Shown here piece after piece: positions 5,350 to 44,770 of a stretch of DNA of 49,526 nt (position 1 is its first letter; each line of letters starts with the position of its first letter). The DNA is from a phage, in the sequence record PZ296778.1. One strand, given 5' to 3'. The notes under the pieces were generated by a model. The model was not told the DNA's origin. It saw only the letters and a program-made list of their open reading frames with translations, and did not search any database. Made by a program: the position numbers and the translations under genes.

Positions 5350-5859
5350 ATGGCTAAAATTGGAGCAAGTTATTTTGACACTATGGCGCGTGCGCTTCCT
5401 GGTCAGGTATCCGATACTTCGGCGTATAACATCGACGGCGCTTGTGTTCTTGACAAGGAAGACGGCATCCCAATCCTGGTTGGCGTGGCTGTTAAGCTAA
5501 AAGGAGTTGACTCAATGGGTAATAAGCTGATCGACGCTATTTCTGGTAGTGGTGATGTTCCTTATGGCGTTGGCATCCGTTCGCACTTTCAAACTACGGC
5601 TGATAATGGACGAATGGTTTATGAGGCTGGCGGCGGAATCAACGTTATGACAGAGGGCCGCGTTTGGATGGTTGGCGATGATACCGACAAGAGCAAAAAA
5701 CCATCGTATCGTGAGCCTGTAAAAATTGATGAAAACACTGGCAAGGTGAAAAGTGCTGGCACTATCAATACCAACTGGATTTACACGGGAGATAAAACCA
5801 CATTTGGAACTGGCGATGATGTGTTGACTTTGTTTGAAGTTCAGGTCTTCCCAAGCTAA
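5350..5859 (+). CDS. virion structural protein, paralog 1 (possible decoration protein)
   Basis: 169 aa; shares motifs with the next ORF (YNIDGACV / YNIDGTGV, VGIRSHF / VAIRSNI, TEGRVWMV / TRGVVWCL); strong RBS; followed by intrinsic terminator. Confidence 0.4.
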   Translation: MAKIGASYFDTMARALPGQVSDTSAYNIDGACVLDKEDGIPILVGVAVKLKGVDSMGNKLIDAISGSGDVPYGVGIRSHFQTTADNGRMVYEAGGGINVMTEGRVWMVGDDTDKSKKPSYREPVKIDENTGKVKSAGTINTNWIYTGDKTTFGTGDDVLTLFEVQVFPS

Positions 5860-5909: not shown

Positions 5910-6692
5910 ATGGCTAAAGATTATTCATCTGTTATGGGTCTTTCTTGCCCTGGTTGTTTGGTTGATTCTACTCGCTACAATATTGATGGAACTGGCGTTT
6001 GCGGATCTGAGTCGATCATTGCTGGCAAAGTTGTTTTCTTCAAAGAGAGAGTGGAAGGTTATAACATATTTGTTGATCATAAAGAGTATGATGCTGTGGT
6101 TGCTGGTGTTGCTATAAGGAGCAATATCACGACAACGGTTAACGAGGAAGACGGATACTCTGACTATAAGGAAGGAGATTCTATCAATATTTTAACAAGA
6201 GGGGTTGTATGGTGCTTAACTCAAACGATTGAGTCTGCGCCTGAACATGGCGATCTTGTTTATGTTAACAATGATGGTTTTGTAGCAAAAAGTGATGGCG
6301 ATGAAATCGTCGATGGCTGGATTTTTACTGGTGACTTCTACAAGTTTGATGAAACAATGAACATAGTCGGAGTCAGAATAACGCCGCTTCATCATAGAAA
6401 ATACCTTCTCACTGGTGCGATCATTGAGGCCGAAAATGGCTACATAGAGGGAACAGAGACGATTAATAACGTTCAATTAAAGGTAACGGTTGTTCCTACT
6501 TGGGCTGATGACAAAACGGGTCAGTGGACAATTACAAACGAGCAAGATCCAAAGGTTGCCAGCGTTAGCCGTACAGGTCTTGTTGTTCCTACTGGTGTAG
6601 GAGGCAGAGTTAACGTCAACTGGACTGCTAATGATGGTTCTGGAGTTGCTGACCAGTTTGATATTGTATTTACGAAAACCGCTGGCGAATAA
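5910..6692 (+). CDS. virion structural protein, paralog 2 with C-terminal extension
   Basis: 260 aa; N-terminal 150 aa paralogous to 5350-5859; RBS aaggag; the overlapping 5905 ORF in another frame is judged spurious. Confidence 0.4.
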   Translation: MAKDYSSVMGLSCPGCLVDSTRYNIDGTGVCGSESIIAGKVVFFKERVEGYNIFVDHKEYDAVVAGVAIRSNITTTVNEEDGYSDYKEGDSINILTRGVVWCLTQTIESAPEHGDLVYVNNDGFVAKSDGDEIVDGWIFTGDFYKFDETMNIVGVRITPLHHRKYLLTGAIIEAENGYIEGTETINNVQLKVTVVPTWADDKTGQWTITNEQDPKVASVSRTGLVVPTGVGGRVNVNWTANDGSGVADQFDIVFTKTAGE

Positions 6693-35770: not shown

Positions 35771-36166
35771 TCATGTGATATTGAATTTACGGCGCAGTGC
35801 TTCAAGATCTTGTCTATTAGCTTTTGCCTGGAACAATTCATCATCGCCCATCTCCCCTATTCTAGCTATATCCCTGATCCAGTCGTTGCGCATACCATCC
35901 AGGCTATACAATTCGAATCCGAAAGGCCGCTTTGACGATCCTTTGGACCAGTATTTTCCGCATACTCCATCTATATAACCAGCCGTCATCATTCTTGCGC
36001 AAAATTCCTTAGATGCAAGGCTGGCGAACATTCGCGGCGTAAGTCCGGCGGCCCGTGCGAGCCGCTCACATTCTCTATGCTGATAGATAAATTTGGCTAT
36101 GTGCTGCCTGTTAAACCAATCGTATGACTCACACCATTTATACAGATCAAGCAAAAACATAATCAT
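35771..36166 (-). CDS. hypothetical protein
   Basis: 131-aa ORF; start overlaps stop of the upstream P-loop gene (ATGA). Confidence 0.45.
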   Translation of the reverse strand: MIMFLLDLYKWCESYDWFNRQHIAKFIYQHRECERLARAAGLTPRMFASLASKEFCARMMTAGYIDGVCGKYWSKGSSKRPFGFELYSLDGMRNDWIRDIARIGEMGDDELFQAKANRQDLEALRRKFNIT

Positions 36167-37854
36167 CCCAGCAGTATTGGATTGACAAAAATAACACCAT
36201 TAATCACACAAACATAATTTCTTTCTTCCAGCATTGGCAGTAAGTGCCCTTCTATCCTTTTCATTACGCCAGCCTGACCAACGAAAGGTTTTACCTTTCT
36301 CGCTGATTCGTACAGGGCGCGGATATTCAGAATCCCTTTATTAGCCTTGCCGTGCCTCGTGATCAATTCAATCAATTTACCCATTTCAGCATCATCACCA
36401 GCATAACCAGAAGCATTGGCGGCGCTAATGTATGTTTTGCTCAATTCCTGAAACATGATCAACGCCTCTTGCATTGTTTCCACGTCGATCTCTTTCGACT
36501 TCTGCGGGTATCCGGCAGGATTAAACCAGTTACGGATAACATGCAGGACGGAAGCAAGCCTGATCACCTGTTTATCCATTTTACCCAGCGCACCGCGTAA
36601 CATTGTATGAGAATACTTTCCTCCGTCTGCAAGATGCGGTTCCATATCCTGGCGAGCAATGTTGAGCACTCGCATAGCTGAACGGCTTATTTTCAGCGAT
36701 ATATTTGATTCGCTCATGATGTTATGCACCAATTGATAATATTGGGCTTTCAATTCAGAATCCACCGCCTCATAGGTAGAATCACCATTTTCATCAATGA
36801 ATGAGCGACGGCCTAAGAATGATTCCTCGCGGACCAACAAAAAACGCTCACTAACACCGATGCCTCGCGATCCAGCGTCCATGATTCCGCTTATCGTTTC
36901 ATCCTGGGCTATAACGCTCATACATCCAAGCGCGCGAAAACTCATATTATTGTCAGCATTAGCGCGGGCAATTGATACGTGACCATTATCCCACGCCTTA
37001 AGCACTAACTCACTGTTAGTCTTCCTTTCGCTATTTGCATAGGTCAAGCCTAACAGACTGTTAATACTTGTTGCTTCATCAGATATTACGGCAAAGTTAC
37101 CTTGCTTGTTGTTGATTTTCGCCAAGCCTTCTGGAGTTGTATCTGAGACAGGAAAAGTTATATCACACATTTTTTCCAGTTTTTCCTCCAGATCCTCTTT
37201 TTCCTGGTATAGAGATTCCATATCAGCGCCGGATCTTTCGCTTTTCATCTCCTTTGCAAGACCTGCCAGCTTTGCCTGTATTTTCTTTCTTTCCTTGCGG
37301 CGTTGCTCGTTGATCTTCTCAACTTCCGCAATCATCGGAGCAATAGCCATGCTGTTGATCGCAGATTTACCAGTTGACGGCGGCTGGCTTGTAACGACGT
37401 AAAGCGCAGTCGGCTGATCGGTTCCGTGATAGTCAACCGTAAAGCGTCCAAGCATAGCGGCAGAAATGCAGCCGATAAAGTGCATGTAAGCCGATGATTC
37501 AGGGAATTGAACGGATCGCGCAATGCTGCGTGATAACTTGCCGACAACATCAATATCATTACCAAGAGAAATAACGGGGTAGCGATCGTGACCGCTATTC
37601 ACATCCGATTCAGGGAATTGAACGGATCGCGCAATGCTGCGTGATAACTTGCCGACAACATCAATATCATTACCAAGAGAAATAACGGGGTAGCGATCGT
37701 GACCGCTATTCACATCCTTTACGTCGCCCCAAAAGCTGGACGACTGGCGATAGCCGTTAGCCTGAATTGATACGCGAACTGGCGAAAGGTTCTGGCTTTC
37801 AGCCATAGCGATTATTTGTTGTGGAGTTAATTTGTTCGTTTCTAATGAAAACAT
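36163..37854 (-). CDS. P-loop NTPase of unknown function (DUF3987-like?)
   Basis: 563 aa; Walker A-like PSTGKS and Walker B-like FAVISDEAT; N-terminus carries a perfect 37-aa tandem duplication; RBS aaggag. Confidence 0.5.
   Translation of the reverse strand: MFSLETNKLTPQQIIAMAESQNLSPVRVSIQANGYRQSSSFWGDVKDVNSGHDRYPVISLGNDIDVVGKLSRSIARSVQFPESDVNSGHDRYPVISLGNDIDVVGKLSRSIARSVQFPESSAYMHFIGCISAAMLGRFTVDYHGTDQPTALYVVTSQPPSTGKSAINSMAIAPMIAEVEKINEQRRKERKKIQAKLAGLAKEMKSERSGADMESLYQEKEDLEEKLEKMCDITFPVSDTTPEGLAKINNKQGNFAVISDEATSINSLLGLTYANSERKTNSELVLKAWDNGHVSIARANADNNMSFRALGCMSVIAQDETISGIMDAGSRGIGVSERFLLVREESFLGRRSFIDENGDSTYEAVDSELKAQYYQLVHNIMSESNISLKISRSAMRVLNIARQDMEPHLADGGKYSHTMLRGALGKMDKQVIRLASVLHVIRNWFNPAGYPQKSKEIDVETMQEALIMFQELSKTYISAANASGYAGDDAEMGKLIELITRHGKANKGILNIRALYESARKVKPFVGQAGVMKRIEGHLLPMLEERNYVCVINGVIFVNPILLG
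37496..37717 (-). repeat. perfect 111-bp in-frame tandem duplication inside the P-loop gene
   Basis: Two identical adjacent 111-bp units (37496-37606 and 37607-37717) encoding a duplicated 37-aa segment. Confidence 0.85.
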
Positions 37855-37906: not shown

Positions 37907-37926
37907 GTTTTGTCAAAAAGTGCTAT
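37907..37926 (-). promoter_or_regulatory. conserved intergenic motif copy R5 (variant)
   Basis: GTTTTGTCAAAAAGTGCTAT; followed on the minus strand by hairpin GGGCCGT...ACGGCCC, RBS aaggag and the P-loop gene start. Confidence 0.6.
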
Positions 37927-38144
37927 TTGATCCGCTCTATTGCAACCAGAAGTCGATCAGGCTGGCGGTCGCTGTAGCATTCTCCTGTAATCCCATCCTT
38001 AAACGTAAAGTAAAGCGCCTTATGATATGAAAAACCAATCAGCCAACCTACCGCCGTTTTTTTGATGGGCCTGACTATATCGCCAGGCTTGAAAGTCTTT
38101 GTGGTAGAATGCGTTACTTTGTAACGGTTTTCACTGTTTATCAC
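37923..38144 (-). CDS. hypothetical protein
   Basis: 73-aa ORF whose stop TAG lies within motif copy R5. Confidence 0.4.
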   Translation of the reverse strand: MINSENRYKVTHSTTKTFKPGDIVRPIKKTAVGWLIGFSYHKALYFTFKDGITGECYSDRQPDRLLVAIERIK

Positions 38145-38527
38145 AGATATTTGCCCTCAAACAGATAACAGCCGCCAGCAGAGAATCCGACCTCTTCACG
38201 GTACAGGTTCCAGCGGTCGCCGCACTCATCAAAAACATAACCCGCAACGCTTCCAAGCGGTCGCCCTTTCTCGATCTGGTATCGCTTGCCCTGCTTAAAG
38301 TGCTTTTTGCACGGCATGTTATGATCTACAAACGTGCAAAGAACGGTCTTTGTGTTAATGGCGCGGTAATCATCTCGGTTTGCTGGAAGCCAACGGCTAC
38401 CCTTAACAAGCGTCTTAACCTGGAACTCTTCCACCTCGATCACATCATTACTTCCTGCAATCTTCTGATAAACCGTTTTAAAACGGCCTTTCATCAATAC
38501 GTTGGTTTCATTACAGATAACATTCAT
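38141..38527 (-). CDS. hypothetical protein
   Basis: 128-aa ORF; overlapping start/stop with the downstream gene. Confidence 0.45.
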   Translation of the reverse strand: MNVICNETNVLMKGRFKTVYQKIAGSNDVIEVEEFQVKTLVKGSRWLPANRDDYRAINTKTVLCTFVDHNMPCKKHFKQGKRYQIEKGRPLGSVAGYVFDECGDRWNLYREEVGFSAGGCYLFEGKYL

Positions 38528-40032: not shown

Positions 40033-40245
40033 TCATTTCTTATTTTTCATCTTAAATTTATGGCCTAGAACACCAGCACCAATATAGCCATCGTTGTATT
40101 CCATTAAATAAAGGTGAAGGCCATTATCTGAAATTACATGAGGATCTTCTTTGAGATTTCCCATTAGCGGGTATTCTTTTCCGCGCGTAAATCTCCAAGT
40201 TGAGTCATAAGTTTCTACGCATTTAAGTTTTAATTGCTTTGCCAT
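40033..40245 (-). CDS. hypothetical protein
   Basis: 70-aa ORF; overlapping start/stop with the upstream gene. Confidence 0.4.
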   Translation of the reverse strand: MAKQLKLKCVETYDSTWRFTRGKEYPLMGNLKEDPHVISDNGLHLYLMEYNDGYIGAGVLGHKFKMKNKK

Positions 40246-40442
40246 TAGATGATCTCCATGTATGTTTCAAAGCCATTTAACTTGAACAGGCCGTTTTCAC
40301 ATTTGCGAACGTTCCAAGTTAGCCCTGAGTGGTACGCCTCCATATCATCAAGGTCAATGGTGATTTCAGCACCTTTCTTAAACAAACCTTTTTCGTGAGA
40401 CTTGTCGCGCTTAACAACTTTAACATCAACCTGATTTTCCAT
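40245..40442 (-). CDS. hypothetical protein (first gene of leftward early operon)
   Basis: Start moved to MENQVDV after RBS gagga; the track start at 40565 would read through motif copy R7 and its hairpin. Confidence 0.4.
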   Translation of the reverse strand: MENQVDVKVVKRDKSHEKGLFKKGAEITIDLDDMEAYHSGLTWNVRKCENGLFKLNGFETYMEII

Positions 40443-40496
40443 CTTTAAATCCTCGTTTGTTGTCGATGCGCTTACTATACCAATCAGCAGCGCATC

Positions 40497-40517
40497 GTTT
40501 TTAACAAAAAGTGCTAT
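40497..40517 (-). promoter_or_regulatory. conserved intergenic motif copy R7
   Basis: GTTTTTAACAAAAAGTGCTAT at the head of the leftward early operon; followed on the minus strand by hairpin GATGCGCT...AGCGCATC, RBS and ATG. Confidence 0.6.
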
Positions 40518-40565
40518 TTGACGGTTAGCACCAGGATTGTGATCGAAATAATCAAAAGTAATCAT

Positions 40566-41881: not shown

Positions 41882-41937
41882 GCCAGGCGCAAAGCCTGGC
41901 ATAATAGCCTCATCGAAACGAGATTGAGGAAACAAAA

Positions 41938-42123
41938 ATGGCACGTCGCATCACCAAAGACCTTAAAGTCCTGAACAAAGAAAACGTAGTTAAAATCCTT
42001 GTTATCTGGGGCTACAACGAAGAAACAGCAAAGCAGAAGGTAGAGGCAGGTTATGACCTGGCTGTAAAAGCAATGCCAAACGATGACGCCAAAGGCATTG
42101 CAAACTATGTAGCGTTCTTTTAA
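41938..42123 (+). CDS. hypothetical protein
   Basis: 61-aa ORF preceded by motif, hairpin and RBS gagga. Confidence 0.4.
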   Translation: MARRITKDLKVLNKENVVKILVIWGYNEETAKQKVEAGYDLAVKAMPNDDAKGIANYVAFF

Positions 42124-42138
42124 TTAGCAGGTGAATAG

Positions 42139-42324
42139 ATGAAAACGAAACTAGTCCATAAGTCAGAAATCAAGATCGGCGATACTGTGATTCACAACGG
42201 CGAGCTTAGAACGGTTGGCAAGGAGTCAATAAGCCACGATGAATTTATGGGGATCTTGTTGTTCGGTGACTCTTATCGTCTTGGTTACAAGATGGTTGAG
42301 CTTGTGGAAGAGGTCAAATTCTAA
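42139..42324 (+). CDS. hypothetical protein
   Basis: 61-aa ORF; stop TAA abuts motif copy F6. Confidence 0.4.
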   Translation: MKTKLVHKSEIKIGDTVIHNGELRTVGKESISHDEFMGILLFGDSYRLGYKMVELVEEVKF

Positions 42325-42344
42325 ATAGCACTTTTTGTTAAAAC
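42325..42344 (+). promoter_or_regulatory. conserved intergenic motif copy F6
   Basis: Exact 20-mer immediately after stop TAA. Confidence 0.65.
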
Positions 42345-42422
42345 TCGAAAACGATAACCAGGCATAATAAATCACATAGGGCGGCACGGCGTCGCCCACA
42401 AAACCAATCAGGAGAAAGCACC

Positions 42423-43316
42423 ATGTTAAAACTTGCTGACATTAAATTCCCGATCACCTTCGAATCTCGCGGCATTGGTCATTACATTTTTACCGATGAA
42501 AAAACATGCCATAAGGTTGATATGAATAGCGACAAACTAAGCCCATCAGACATGGAGATTGAACACTTTATTGATGCGCACAATACGCAGTACAACGCAC
42601 TTAAAGACTATGGCTATGCAATGCCAGGATATACCAGCTTCCACTACAAGCCATATAAAGGCCAGGTGTTGCCAGTGCGCTCACCGGAACGCGCAGAGAT
42701 TCCGATGGTCGAGATGAAAACATGCGACTATAAAAAGCTGTGGTGCTTAAGTGTTGACAATATCAAGTATCCGATCACGTTCTACACGGTTGGTAATTCA
42801 ACGATTCGATTCACATCGCGCGACAATGGCGTTTATAGCGATGGTACGAAATCAGAGTTGAAAGTTGATTTCTTTGTCAACGGTCACAATAGATACAATC
42901 CGCACAACGAAAAAGATAAAGTGTATTACGTGGAAGATATTACAAAACACTTATTTGGAGAAACTCCATTCGGCGGCGGTAAGACGTCAATTCAAAAAAT
43001 CATTGGCGATGAGATCCACAAAGCGGCTGCCGAAATGAAAGCGCCTGGAGGCTGGCGTATTGACAAGAGCGCCTTTGCCTATCAAGAAATCGTAACGCAG
43101 GGCGCAATTGAAGATATGCCAGTTGCAGCCACGCTAAAAGGAGTCCGGCTTGATGACGGCACCTGGTATGAAGTAACGGCTACGCCAAAGACGATCGAGA
43201 TTCATGATGACGTTGTTATCCTTCTGCTTCACTACGGCGGCTATAAAAACCGGACGATTGCAGGTGAGATCAGCATTAAGCGCGGAACGATGGTTAAGTG
43301 GAAGGTCAAAGTGTAA
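42423..43316 (+). CDS. hypothetical protein with internal domain duplication
   Basis: 297 aa; two related segments (LADIKFPITFESRGIGHYIFTD / VDNIKYPITFYTVGNSTIRFTS); RBS ggaga. Confidence 0.5.
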   Translation: MLKLADIKFPITFESRGIGHYIFTDEKTCHKVDMNSDKLSPSDMEIEHFIDAHNTQYNALKDYGYAMPGYTSFHYKPYKGQVLPVRSPERAEIPMVEMKTCDYKKLWCLSVDNIKYPITFYTVGNSTIRFTSRDNGVYSDGTKSELKVDFFVNGHNRYNPHNEKDKVYYVEDITKHLFGETPFGGGKTSIQKIIGDEIHKAAAEMKAPGGWRIDKSAFAYQEIVTQGAIEDMPVAATLKGVRLDDGTWYEVTATPKTIEIHDDVVILLLHYGGYKNRTIAGEISIKRGTMVKWKVKV

Positions 43317-43336
43317 ATAGCACGAATTGTTAAAAC
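43317..43336 (+). promoter_or_regulatory. conserved intergenic motif copy F7 (variant)
   Basis: ATAGCACGAATTGTTAAAAC after stop TAA; followed by hairpin GTGGGGCC...GGCCCCAC. Confidence 0.6.
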
Positions 43337-43389
43337 TCAAATGTGGGGCCAGGTATAATGGCCCCACTTTCAACGAAGGAGATAAAACG

Positions 43390-43611
43390 ATGTACATTAA
43401 AAAGAAGATGAAATGCATTTCCGTTAACTATGCTTGCTCTGGCATGTTCAATCCTGGCGAAATCTATACGGCGCAAAAACTGAAATCATCAACCGGATCT
43501 TTTTACGTGAGCAATAGTAAGGGGCATCGCATGTTCCTGAACGGCGGCGAAGGCACTAAGGTTATGGCACACGCTATGGTAATGGCTGAATTTGAGGAAG
43601 TGAAACAATGA
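43390..43611 (+). CDS. hypothetical small protein, paralog A
   Basis: Start at MYIKKK after RBS aaggag; shares FxPGxxY...FYLNG...AEFEE pattern with the next ORF. Confidence 0.45.
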   Translation: MYIKKKMKCISVNYACSGMFNPGEIYTAQKLKSSTGSFYVSNSKGHRMFLNGGEGTKVMAHAMVMAEFEEVKQ

Positions 43612-43853
43612 TCATTGAAAACAATTTTCTTTGCGTTAAGAGCAATAGACCATTCTTCACGCCTGGCAAGGTGTACCAGGGCAAGAAGGACACAAGAGAT
43701 GGTCACTCTTATCATGTTCACTGCAACAACGGATACAAGTTTTACCTTAACGGCGAGAATGGAACAGAGATCGTTGCGTTTGAAAACGTAGTTGCCGAGT
43801 TTGAGCAGATTACAGACGCGGAATTTGAGGAAGTGAAAGATGAAAACAAATAA
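43608..43853 (+). CDS. hypothetical small protein, paralog B
   Basis: 81 aa; ATGA overlap with paralog A. Confidence 0.45.
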   Translation: MIIENNFLCVKSNRPFFTPGKVYQGKKDTRDGHSYHVHCNNGYKFYLNGENGTEIVAFENVVAEFEQITDAEFEEVKDENK

Positions 43854-44061
43854 GCGCGTCAAGCACAGGTTTACTGATAACCACGGCGACGCGATTGATG
43901 TATACAAGTTTGGCGATCGAGTTTTTATTGATGGCACGTTTGAAGGTGGGCGTAGGCCGGATTTTAGGTCGATACTTACCGTTGACCAAGTGCGCAAGCT
44001 GGCAGATAAGTTAAATGATCTGGCAGATGAAATAGAATACAAGCAAATCCATTTTAATTGA
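43840..44061 (+). CDS. hypothetical protein
   Basis: 73-aa ORF overlapping the upstream stop. Confidence 0.4.
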   Translation: MKTNKRVKHRFTDNHGDAIDVYKFGDRVFIDGTFEGGRRPDFRSILTVDQVRKLADKLNDLADEIEYKQIHFN

Positions 44062-44072
44062 TAGGTTTTATA

Positions 44073-44612
44073 ATGAAAAAATACACTTTCGAACTATGGG
44101 GCAAGAAGTACGAATTAATCACCAGCAAGCCGATTGTTATCGTTGACCTGGACGGCACACTATCGGACGGATCGCATCGTTTGCATTTGCTGCCAACTGA
44201 AAACTTGCACCTTACGGAATCGTGGAGCGAATTTAACAGGGCCGCCGCCGGAGATTCACCGATTAAAAGCACGATCGCGGTTATTAACGGTTTGTGGGTG
44301 TCGGGATTTGCCATCGTCATCTTGACCGGACGCAGCGACGAGGTGCGCTATGAAACCTGCAAATGGTTGAATGAGAGCGGCGTGAAGTTTGACGAAATCA
44401 TCATGCGCCGCCAGGAGGACAACCGAAAGGATACGGTTATTAAAGAAGAAGCCTTGCGCGCTATTGGCCTGGAAAATATTGTTTGCGCCTTTGACGATTC
44501 GCCGAACGTTGTTAAGCACTTCCGCAGCCTGGGAATCACAACCTATCAGGTCACGGAATACGACAAGCCGCACGCTCACCTGCAATCTCACGGCGTGGAG
44601 TGTTTAAAATGA
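44073..44612 (+). CDS. HAD-superfamily phosphatase (polynucleotide 3'-phosphatase / nucleotidase-like)
   Basis: HAD motif I VDLDGTL, motif II VILTGR, motif IV AFDDSPNVV; start at MKKYTF (track start is TTG). Confidence 0.55.
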   Translation: MKKYTFELWGKKYELITSKPIVIVDLDGTLSDGSHRLHLLPTENLHLTESWSEFNRAAAGDSPIKSTIAVINGLWVSGFAIVILTGRSDEVRYETCKWLNESGVKFDEIIMRRQEDNRKDTVIKEEALRAIGLENIVCAFDDSPNVVKHFRSLGITTYQVTEYDKPHAHLQSHGVECLK

Positions 44613-44770
44613 CTTGGTTGCTTTTAATCTTTGTCACAAGTTACAACTCCGCAGCTATTGAGTCGCAGGAGTTCCACGGCGAATCAAGATGCCAGGAAGC
44701 GCGAAAGCAAGTTGTTCTCCACATGTCAGATAGTGGGAAGGATGTAACAGCGTTATGCGTTCGTAAATAG
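44609..44770 (+). CDS. small membrane protein (ORF below track threshold)
   Basis: About 53 codons read by eye (MTWLLLIFVTSYNSAAIES...); ATGA overlap with HAD gene stop; stop TAG is part of motif copy F8. Coordinates approximate. Confidence 0.3.
   Translation: MTWLLLIFVTSYNSAAIESQEFHGESRCQEARKQVVLHMSDSGKDVTALCVRK

What the first reader, a model, noticed from the sequence alone, without database searches (positions are those of the whole stretch)
43390..43853. Tandem paralogous small genes and other duplications in the early array
ORFs 43390-43611 and 43608-43853 are paralogs (shared FxPGxxY, FYLNG and AEFEE segments) and are translationally coupled. The 297-aa protein at 42423-43316 contains an internal two-domain duplication, and the structural proteins at 5350-5859 and 5910-6692 are also paralogs. 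Recurrent local duplication suggests these loci are diversifying.
Basis: seen in the sequence. Interest (0 to 1): 0.35.

Follow-up and report, generated by a model that had tools for sequence, protein, structure and literature searches.

The report
Optional paralog cassette in T1-like phage
Two adjacent small early genes of a T1-like coliphage are real but old paralogs with one small beta-barrel fold, and the second is an optional cassette gained or lost by recombination at a 21-base repeat, which is ordinary phage mosaicism and not active local duplication.

Summary
The window is a Warwickvirus (Drexlerviridae), 99.8% identical to Escherichia phage tinuso over the 2.8 kb compared.

All three paralogies are real:
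- A (43390-43611) vs B (43608-43853): 32% identity, E 3e-14.
- The 297-aa protein repeats an N-terminal module of about 55 residues (E 2e-5).
- 5350-5859 and 5910-6692 are both Phage_cement capsid decoration proteins. Homologues of both (158 and 255 aa) are chains of a solved capsid (PDB 9kmh, 9kzj).

A and B are small six-stranded beta-barrels of unknown function. They belong to a Drexlerviridae family of uncharacterised early proteins (phrog_9122). They sit in one operon, A-B-C-phosphatase, behind a sigma-70-like promoter.

The shared "AEFEE" tail is also a 21-nt direct repeat (20/21 identical). It carries the Shine-Dalgarno sequence of the next gene and brackets B exactly. Relatives carry A only (about 71 of 101 records), both (26) or B only (4). 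A-only alleles equal a clean 233-nt deletion between the repeats.

dN/dS is 0.08-0.17, so selection is purifying. Diversification is by cassette exchange, not by recent duplication or fast point evolution. Only the 297-aa gene shows copy-number change (2-3 repeats, plus an extra gene copy).

Function is inferred only. Interest is low to moderate.

The parts
43315..43367 (+). Promoter-like module of the A-B-C-phosphatase operon. It holds the 22-nt motif AAATAGCACGAATTGTTAAAAC (43315-43336), a -35-like TTAAAA (43330-43335), a -10 TATAAT (43354-43359), and a 9-bp inverted repeat GTGGGGCCA/TGGCCCCAC (43343-43367) bracketing the -10.
   Evidence: Promoter scan scores 10/12. The motif occurs 16 times in the window against 0.03 expected. 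Layout; hairpin statistics. Function is inferred.
43376..43381 (+). Shine-Dalgarno AAGGAG, 8 nt upstream of the ATG of A. It shows that the longer TTG-initiated ORF from 43327 is an over-call that runs through the promoter.
   Evidence: Sequence; tinuso_17 annotation starts at the same ATG.
43390..43611 (+). Gene A, 73 aa, a small beta-barrel early protein of unknown function.
   Evidence: phrog_9122 E 8.5e-5. dN/dS 0.13. The BFVD model of its phage tonn homologue superposes on the B model at TM 0.79/0.87, rmsd 1.3 A.
43585..43605 (+). Junction repeat R1, GCTGAATTTGAGGAAGTGAAA. It encodes AEFEEVK, the last strand of A, and contains GAGGA, the Shine-Dalgarno sequence for B.
   Evidence: Repeat family D5. 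The 18-nt core occurs exactly twice against 0.01 expected.
43608..43853 (+). Gene B, 81 aa, a paralog of A. It is a complete barrel with its own AEFEQI terminal strand, followed by an extra tail TD-AEFEEVKDENK that is predicted helical. B is an optional cassette.
   Evidence: AlphaFold2 pLDDT 88.8, pTM 0.77, six strands and a C-terminal helix. phrog_9122 E 2.6e-10. dN/dS 0.08.
43818..43838 (+). Junction repeat R2, GCGGAATTTGAGGAAGTGAAA, 20/21 identical to R1 and 233 nt downstream of it. It contains the Shine-Dalgarno sequence for gene C.
   Evidence: In A-only phages the 233-nt indel ends inside this repeat.
43840..44061 (+). Gene C, 73 aa, unknown function (phrog_14011). It overlaps the end of B by 14 nt. 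In relatives it is replaced by a 52%-identical allele (XY3), absent (L008, L012), or fused to A (tonnikala).
   Evidence: dN/dS 0.09.
44073..44612 (+). Last conserved gene of the operon, 179 aa. Relatives annotate it as polynucleotide kinase/phosphatase; here only HAD-phosphatase family matches were found.
42423..43316 (+). 297-aa protein of unknown function. It has an internal repeat of an N-terminal module of about 55 residues (nt 42426-42596 and 42741-42902). PHROG 7116 covers only residues 108-296.
   Evidence: A three-repeat variant P0032 exists, and L012 has an extra partial gene copy. The AlphaFold2 model is poor, pLDDT 46.5.
5350..5859 (+). Capsid cement/decoration protein, 169 aa (Pfam Phage_cement PF22758).
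   Evidence: 85.4 bits against a cutoff of 27. PDB 9kmg_a 'Decoration protein | cement protein II', E 1.9e-37.
5910..6692 (+). Second cement/decoration paralog, 260 aa: Phage_cement domain (residues 4-156) plus a C-terminal Big_2 Ig-like domain (residues 186-246).
   Evidence: PDB 9kzj_H 'BIG2 domain-containing protein' and 9kmh 'Decoration protein gp29'.
40033..40245 (-). Possible third, distant member of the A/B family, 70 aa, directly downstream of the Gp54 homologue on the left arm.
   Evidence: Weak. hmmsearch with the A/B profile gives E 0.0016 among window ORFs. hhalign probability 31%, E 5e-4. It hits phrog_10169, as do A and B. Shuffle z is only about 3.

Best explanation
**What A and B are.** A and B are two old paralogs of a Drexlerviridae family of small soluble proteins of about 65-80 aa. 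They share one six-stranded beta-barrel fold. They are transcribed with C and a HAD phosphatase from one sigma-70-like promoter-like site in what is taken to be the early gene array. They are read by coupled translation.

**The junction.** Each barrel ends in the strand A-x-F-E-x-V. In this lineage the codons for FEEVK (TTTGAGGAAGTGAAA) also carry the Shine-Dalgarno sequence of the next gene. The same 18-21 nt therefore sit at every gene junction of the locus.

**B is an optional cassette.** B is bracketed by two copies of this junction. Recombination between the copies, or between co-infecting phages at them, adds, removes or swaps cassettes without disturbing the start of the next gene. This gives the observed alleles A-C, A'-C', B-C, A-B-C and A'-B-C.

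**How B probably arose.** B has its own terminal strand followed by a second, A-type tail. This suggests that a complete B barrel was placed upstream of a pre-existing A-type junction.

**Shown:** paralogy, fold, junction repeat, allele series, purifying selection.

**Inferred:** early transcription, translational coupling, the recombination mechanism, and function. The most likely function is a non-essential protein-binding module that modulates a host factor or defence system, as proposed for other small accessory early proteins of these phages.
For: **Identity of the phage.** The window is 99.8% identical to Escherichia phage tinuso over window 41900-44700.

**Paralogy.**

**Fold.**
- The B model is confident (pLDDT 88.8).
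- It matches BFVD models of A homologues (TM 0.79-0.87, rmsd 1.2-1.3 A) and of many uncharacterised small phage proteins, several of them from named T1-like phages.

**Wider family.**
- A full HMMER scan of 1.84 billion proteins found full-length relatives only among small phage-type proteins (P0167, P0201) and a 348-aa protein with two tandem copies (P0205).
- These relatives also end in FE-x-VE. The terminal strand is therefore a protein feature.

**Junction repeat.**

**Census in 50,697 phage records.**
- 101 records have a family member.
- 30 have B at 80% identity or more.
- 26 have two places (A and B).
- Henu8, MatMar and Jahat_MG145 have B only.

**Architectures.** Fourteen loci were compared. 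There is a clean 233-nt indel with ends inside the repeat.

**Shuffling.** B is 97.5-100% identical next to either A or the 56%-identical A'. P0010 is an A'/A chimera.

**Selection.** dN/dS is A 0.13, A' 0.17, B 0.08, C 0.09, against 0.10 for the phosphatase.

**Promoter.**
Against: **Function.**
- No function is demonstrated.
- There is no Pfam, NCBIfam or PADLOC hit.
- No PDB fold match has E below 1.

**Direction and mechanism of the event.**
- Gain versus loss of B is not resolved.
- The repeat could be kept identical by selection on the Shine-Dalgarno sequence and start region, rather than marking a recombination event.
- Only 14 loci were inspected base by base. The wider census rests on tblastn tables.

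**Expression.** Early timing and translational coupling are inferred from sequence layout only.
Confidence: 0.62

Rival explanations
1. Recent in-situ tandem duplication followed by rapid diversifying (positive) selection.
For: The two genes are adjacent, on the same strand, similar in size and homologous. They share an identical 18-nt tail segment.
Against: - Identity is only 32% at protein level, with no DNA similarity outside the 21-nt junction.
- dN/dS is 0.08-0.17 within each lineage.
- B is nearly invariant across phages with different A alleles.
- B-only and A-only genomes exist.
Confidence: 0.07
2. An ancient tandem duplication in the common ancestor of these Tempevirinae. Both copies were retained in some lineages, and one or the other was later lost by deletion between the junction repeats. 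B was never acquired horizontally.
For: - A and B are each other's closest relatives outside their own orthologues.
- Deletion between direct repeats is the simplest event and gives exactly the A-only allele.
- A tandem two-domain relative, P0205, shows that the domain does duplicate in tandem.
Against: - B carries a complete barrel ending in AEFEQI plus an extra A-type tail, in B-only phages too. This looks like insertion upstream of an existing junction rather than a plain duplication.
- B pairs with two very different A alleles.
- Most genomes lack B, which would need many independent losses.
Confidence: 0.25
3. A and B are two subunits that must act together, as a hetero-oligomer, which would explain the coupled translation.
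For: The ATGA overlap and shared operon fit stoichiometric co-expression. The A-C fusion in tonnikala suggests that neighbours in this operon may cooperate.
Against: About 75 of 101 related genomes carry only one of the two. Each therefore functions without the other.
Confidence: 0.05
4. The similarity is chance or compositional, or the ORFs are not genes.
For: The ORFs are short, no curated family matches them, and a 179-aa antisense ORF overlaps them.
Against: - E 3e-14 and shuffle z 20.
- The ORFs are conserved in about 100 genomes with dN/dS near 0.1.
- The fold prediction is confident and shared.
- A Shine-Dalgarno sequence precedes each start.
Confidence: 0.01

Closest known systems
PHROG 9122 / phage TLS gp15-type small proteins (Tlsvirus and related Drexlerviridae; uncharacterised)
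   Same: They have the same length class (64-65 aa) and the same conserved pattern: an N-terminal K-C, F/T-x-G-x-I-Y, N-G and a terminal A-E-F-E-x-V-E. B scores E 2.6e-10 and A 8.5e-5 against the profile. The FSL SP-126 member matches the B model at TM 0.69/0.85. They lie in the same small-gene array, on the same strand as pnkP.
   Different: They are single-copy in the 49 phage records found and sit at another position in the array, after pnkP and dmk in TLS. They lack the extra tail of B. Their function is equally unknown.
DUF7244 (Pfam PF23896, SH3 clan): standalone SH3-like domain next to the Drexlerviridae lysis cassette (PMC13164509)
   Same: It is a small all-beta domain of T1-like phages. 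The distant relative P0205 of the A/B profile reaches the DUF7244 gathering score (29.5 bits). A DUF7244 protein appears among the weaker BFVD fold matches.
   Different: A and B, and 12 of their homologues, give no DUF7244 hit even at E 10. The genomic position differs: early array rather than lysis module. No PDB SH3 domain matches the model with E below 1.
Gp54 of phage Bas11 (Pfam PF25180; PDB 9axb, 9erv), a trigger of the CapRel-SJ46 defence protein (PMC11578894)
   Same: [quoted passage not shown] The window encodes a homologue at 40245-40442, followed by a possible third A/B-like gene.
   Different: There is no sequence similarity to A or B. 9axb and 9erv are not among the 50 PDB matches listed for the B model. 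No defence system is known to sense A or B.
Mosaic exchange at conserved gene-boundary ('linker') sequences in lambdoid and other tailed phages
   Same: Short conserved sequences at gene junctions act as crossover points, so whole genes are swapped, gained or lost while expression signals stay intact.
   Different: Here the junction lies inside coding sequence. It serves at once as the last beta-strand of the upstream protein and as the ribosome-binding site of the next gene.
Paired cement/decoration proteins of a solved T1-like capsid (PDB 9kmg, 9kmh, 9kzj; Pfam Phage_cement PF22758, E217 gp24 / Pam3 gp6)
   Same: It has the same two-paralog set: a chain of about 158 aa and a 255-aa chain with a Big_2 domain. 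Its major capsid protein matches the window's at E 3e-155.
   Different: Nothing essential differs. The window proteins are ordinary members. The small paralog is variable among phages whose early region is close (55-60% identity in swan01 and pSf-1).

Membership tests
PHROG 9122 (uncharacterised small Drexlerviridae proteins) | Significant full-length match to the family profile | tested here: met
   B: E 2.6e-10, residues 9-68 on profile positions 5-63 of 64. A: E 8.5e-5, residues 6-71 on positions 2-63 of 64. A is marginal.
DUF7244 (PF23896, SH3 clan) | Pfam HMM score at or above the gathering score (27 bits) | tested here: not met
   A and B give no hit at E up to 1. None of the 14 family members gives a hit at E up to 10. 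Only the distant relative P0205 passes, at 29.5 bits.
SH3-like small beta-barrel fold | Significant structural match of the model to solved SH3-type domains | tested here: inconclusive
   Foldseek against the PDB gave no hit with E below 1. SH3 domains and FeoA appear at TM 0.31-0.45 with probability 0.28 or less.
Recent tandem gene duplicate | Nucleotide-level similarity along the two copies | tested here: not met
   Only one 21-nt repeat is shared. Protein identity is 32%.
Translationally coupled gene pair | Stop and start codons overlap or abut, with a ribosome-binding site inside the upstream gene | tested here: met
   The A/B junction is ATGA, with GAGGA 9 nt upstream of the ATG. B and C overlap by 14 nt, with GAGGA 8 nt upstream.
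Translationally coupled gene pair | Downstream translation depends on upstream translation | not testable with these tools
   This needs reporter fusions with premature stops in A.
Phage_cement (PF22758) capsid decoration proteins | Pfam score above the gathering score; homologue present in a solved capsid | tested here: met
   5350-5859 scores 85.4 bits and 5910-6692 scores 79.1 bits, against a cutoff of 27. Big_2 scores 28.3 bits against 22.8. PDB 9kmg, 9kmh and 9kzj match.
Internal domain repeat in the 297-aa protein | Significant self-similarity that holds at profile level | tested here: met
   BLASTP E 2e-5. hhalign probability 87.5%, E 3.6e-6. Shuffle z 7.0. A three-copy variant exists. 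Structural confirmation failed because the model is poor, pLDDT 46.5.
Anti-defence or defence-trigger protein | Experimental effect on a defence system, or homology to a known one | not testable with these tools
   There is no PADLOC hit, and that library holds defence proteins, not counter-defence proteins. No anti-defence library was available.

The most novel reading that the evidence does not exclude
A and B, and perhaps 40033-40245, belong to a Drexlerviridae-wide set of interchangeable small beta-barrel 'binder' cassettes. Each would neutralise, or be sensed by, a different host defence system, in the way Gp54 of Bas11 is sensed by CapRel-SJ46. The dual-purpose FEEVK/Shine-Dalgarno junction would have been selected as a plug-in site, letting phages stack or swap such cassettes while keeping the operon translated.
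Probability: 0.18. Interest if true: 0.5.

Novelty: new member of a known kind. Interest (0 to 1): 0.24.

Why it matters
About half of T1-like phage genes are small ORFs of unknown function. This analysis does three things:
- It groups two of them, and relatives such as TLS gp15, into one confidently predicted fold family.
- It shows that they are maintained by selection.
- It gives a base-level picture of how one such gene is gained or lost.

This marks A and B as reasonable candidates for host-range or counter-defence screens in the well-studied BASEL and SECphi27 group of phages.

It does not reveal a new mechanism. Cassette mosaicism at gene boundaries and paired capsid decoration proteins are both familiar.

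Tried and rejected
**Family searches**
- Pfam, NCBIfam and PADLOC scans of A, B, C and the 297-aa protein gave nothing meaningful.
- The profile search of 1.84 billion representatives mostly returned giant repeat proteins. They match only profile positions 39-59, an N-G-x-K-M-F-x-x-G hairpin motif, many times over. I treat these as motif matches, not homologues.

**Structure**
- Foldseek of the B model against the PDB gave no hit with E below 1. An SH3 assignment is not justified.
- The AlphaFold2 model of the 297-aa protein was too poor (pLDDT 46.5) to confirm its repeat. It was not sent to fold search.

**More family members in the window**
- 38141-38527 and 37923-38144 are too weak (hhalign probability 7% and 1%).
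- 40033-40245 stays only 'possible'.

**Related loci and literature**
- The IMG/VR scan gave only 8 loci.
- Searches for the solved T1-like capsid entry (9KMG, 'cement protein II') and for functional work on Drexlerviridae early genes found nothing usable.
- The Structure 2025 paper on a T1-like siphophage is not held.

**RNA**
- Rfam and tRNA scans of the window were empty.

Full report
**What the window is.** A megablast of 41900-44700 finds 163 phage records. The best is Escherichia phage tinuso (MN850634; Drexlerviridae, Tempevirinae, Warwickvirus) at 99.8% identity. The two ORFs of the finding are tinuso_17 and tinuso_18, both 'hypothetical protein'.

**Checking the observations.**
- A (43390-43611, 73 aa) and B (43608-43853, 81 aa) align at 32% identity over 71 residues, E 3e-14.
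- In an all-against-all BLASTP of the 326 window ORFs of 40 aa or more, this pair and the structural pair are the only gene pairs below 1e-3.
- Against 2000 shuffles the A/B score has z = 20, and z = 14.9 after the AEFE tails are removed. The homology therefore does not rest on the tail.
- A's TGA overlaps B's ATG (ATGA), and B overlaps the next gene C (43840-44061) by 14 nt.
- The longer TTG ORF from 43327 runs through a promoter-like site (TTAAAA-18-TATAAT, 43330-43359) and is an over-call. AAGGAG lies 8 nt before the ATG at 43390.
- The 297-aa protein repeats an N-terminal module of about 55 residues: residues 2-58 against 107-160, 32% identity, E 2e-5. hhalign gives probability 87.5% and the shuffle z is 7.
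- 5350-5859 and 5910-6692 align at 31% identity over 171 residues, E 1e-14.

**The structural pair is ordinary.**
- Both proteins are Pfam Phage_cement (85 and 79 bits). The second adds a Big_2 Ig-like domain.
- PDB entries 9kmh and 9kzj hold both a 158-aa 'Decoration protein / cement protein II' and a 255-aa 'BIG2 domain-containing / Decoration protein gp29'. The major capsid protein of this capsid (9kmg, 9kmh, 9kzj) matches the window's at E 3e-155.
- The family occurs in 828 phage records.
- This is an old, widespread duplication whose homologues are both chains of one solved capsid.

**What A and B are.**
- No curated family matches them.
- Both hit PHROG 9122, an uncharacterised 64-residue family.
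- The 5.8-billion-protein search found only close relatives on contigs of about 50 kb.
- A full HMMER pass over 1.84 billion representatives added three things: two small proteins of TLS-gp15 type (P0167, P0201), a 348-aa protein with two tandem copies of the domain (P0205), and many giant repeat proteins. The giant proteins match only a 20-residue hairpin motif, and I discount them.
- P0201-type genes are single-copy in 49 Tlsvirus-like phage records and lie elsewhere in the small-gene array next to pnkP.
- AlphaFold2 on a 14-sequence alignment gives a confident model of B: pLDDT 88.8, pTM 0.77, six beta-strands, then a helix formed by the extra tail.
- No PDB structure matches it with E below 1.
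- In BFVD it matches models of A homologues (TM 0.79-0.87, rmsd 1.2-1.3 A) and dozens of uncharacterised small phage proteins, several of them from named T1-like phages.
- So A and B share a fold and belong to a Drexlerviridae-centred family of small barrels. A link to the SH3-clan DUF7244 domain (PMC13164509) is at best remote, and the membership test fails.

**The junction repeat and the allele series.**
- The 'AEFEE' segment is two things at once.
- As protein, A-x-F-E-x-V is the conserved last strand of the barrel. It is present even in the distant relatives, which end there.
- As DNA, GC(T/G)GAATTTGAGGAAGTGAAA occurs twice, 233 nt apart. It closes A (43585-43605) and closes B (43818-43838). 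The 18-nt core is exact and is expected 0.01 times by chance.
- It contains GAGGA, placed 8-9 nt before the start codon of the following gene.
- B first ends its own barrel with AEFEQI. It then adds TD-AEFEEVKDENK, a second tail of A type.
- In 14 loci read base by base the arrangements are:
  - 297-A-B-C (window, tinuso)
  - A'-B-C (NorthRox, L013)
  - A'-C' (XY3)
  - B-C (Henu8)
  - A-C (tonnikala, L006, L007, L009-L011)
  - A alone (L008, L012)
- Every junction carries TTTGAGGAAGT(G/A)AAA just before the next start.
- A-only alleles differ from the window by one clean 233-nt gap whose ends fall inside the repeat.
- tblastn over 50,697 phage records gives 101 records with a family member. 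B at 80% identity or more is in 30 of them, both genes are in 26, and B alone is in Henu8 (two records), MatMar and Jahat_MG145. That leaves about 71 records with A or A' only.
- B is 97.5-100% identical whether it sits beside A or beside the 56%-identical A'. P0010 is an A'/A chimera. The cassettes are therefore shuffled among backbones.

**Selection.** Nei-Gojobori dN/dS over the available orthologues is 0.13 (A), 0.17 (A'), 0.08 (B) and 0.09 (C), against 0.10 for the neighbouring phosphatase. These are real genes under purifying selection. There is no sign of rapid diversifying point evolution.

**Interpretation.**
- The best-supported account is that A and B are old paralogs kept as exchangeable cassettes. 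The dual-use junction, last strand plus ribosome-binding site, lets recombination add or remove a cassette without breaking expression of the next gene.
- B's extra tail suggests that a complete B barrel was once set down upstream of an existing A-type junction.
- Whether the two-gene state arose by ancient duplication and later loss, or by acquisition, is not settled.
- Function is unknown. Three features point to an accessory role that modulates a host factor or defence system: position in the presumed early array behind a sigma-70-like promoter, dispensability across relatives, and a small binder-like fold. The same role was proposed for Gp54 of Bas11, a small non-essential barrel protein of a T1-like phage (PMC11578894). 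This last step is inference only.

**The 297-aa gene.**
- This is the one locus where copy number does change.
- PHROG 7116 covers only residues 108-296, which suggests one-module forms exist.
- The window has two modules. P0032 has three.
- Shigella phage 2019SD1 carries an extra partial gene copy next to the full one.
- Its structure could not be predicted reliably.

**Verdict.**
- The observations are confirmed.
- The finding is an ordinary case of phage gene-cassette mosaicism, with a clear junction mechanism, in a protein family that is uncharacterised but not new.

Noticed in passing
window 37496-37717 (inside the 563-aa putative helicase gene 36163-37854, minus strand): A perfect 111-bp tandem duplication (2.0 copies, 100% identity) adds 37 in-frame residues. 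All 12 listed close relatives, tinuso included, span this 511-nt query in 400 nt, so they have one copy. It is either a very recent private duplication or an assembly artefact.
   Followed up: partly
window, 16 sites: 2091, 10471(-), 21248(-), 28830, 31319, 32390, 35634(-), 37907(-), 38581(-), 40498(-), 41860, 42323, 43315, 44765, 46085, 47400: A 22-nt motif AAATAGCACTTTTTGTTAAAAC (3 mismatches or fewer; 0.03 expected) always points toward the downstream genes. A -10-like hexamer and then SD+ATG follow at most copies. In 9 of 16 copies the next 40 nt hold a perfect inverted repeat of 6 bp or more, against about 1 expected. The repeat lies in the spacer or brackets the -10, and the stem sequence differs between copies. 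The role of these hairpins in a promoter-like module is unexplained.
   Followed up: partly
window 40245-40565 (-), probably 40245-40442: This is a homologue of Gp54 of phage Bas11, a direct trigger of the CapRel-SJ46 defence protein: Pfam PF25180 E 7e-38, PDB 9axb E 4e-17. The promoter motif at 40498-40519 lies inside the 106-aa ORF. The real gene therefore most likely starts at the internal ATG (65 aa). The next gene downstream, 40033-40245, is the possible third A/B-like gene.
   Followed up: partly
B/C (or A/C) overlap, window 43836-43853, GATGAAAACAAATAAG; L004 2205-2240: Single-base length changes in this A-rich overlap change the products. Tonnikala lacks one A and fuses A to C in frame, giving 145 aa. 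The P0003/P0004 variants (121 aa; P0003 on 275 contigs) read on past B's usual stop for about 40 further residues that are not the C protein. I infer a one-base insertion from the protein sequence alone; it would truncate C.
   Followed up: partly
L004 1779-1931, L005 1770-1922, and L006, L007, L013 (between the 297-aa gene and A): An optional 50-aa ORF (MATWILLILMIDGG..., with a hydrophobic N-terminus) is present in five of 14 related loci and absent from the window. It is another presence/absence cassette in the same array.
   Followed up: no
L012 (Shigella phage 2019SD1) 982-2426; protein P0032: The 297-aa gene family varies in copy number. 2019SD1 has a full copy followed by a second copy of residues 112-297. 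P0032 (374 aa) has three N-terminal repeat modules.
   Followed up: partly
window 5350-5859: The small cement/decoration paralog is only 55-60% identical in swan01 and pSf-1. The early region of these phages is 98% and 90% identical to the window. This suggests allelic replacement of a surface-exposed capsid protein.
   Followed up: no
window 44073-44612: The gene annotated 'polynucleotide kinase' in relatives is 179 aa here and matches only HAD-phosphatase families. In tonnikala and NorthRox the annotated gene is 711-717 nt rather than 540 nt.
   Followed up: no
A/B family profile positions 39-59: The N-G-x-[KR]-[MF]-[FY]-L-N-G-x-x-G hairpin of the family matches, many times per protein, the FNxDGTKMFV-type repeats of very large repeat proteins in metagenomes. 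This is probably a convergent beta-hairpin motif, not homology.
   Followed up: no
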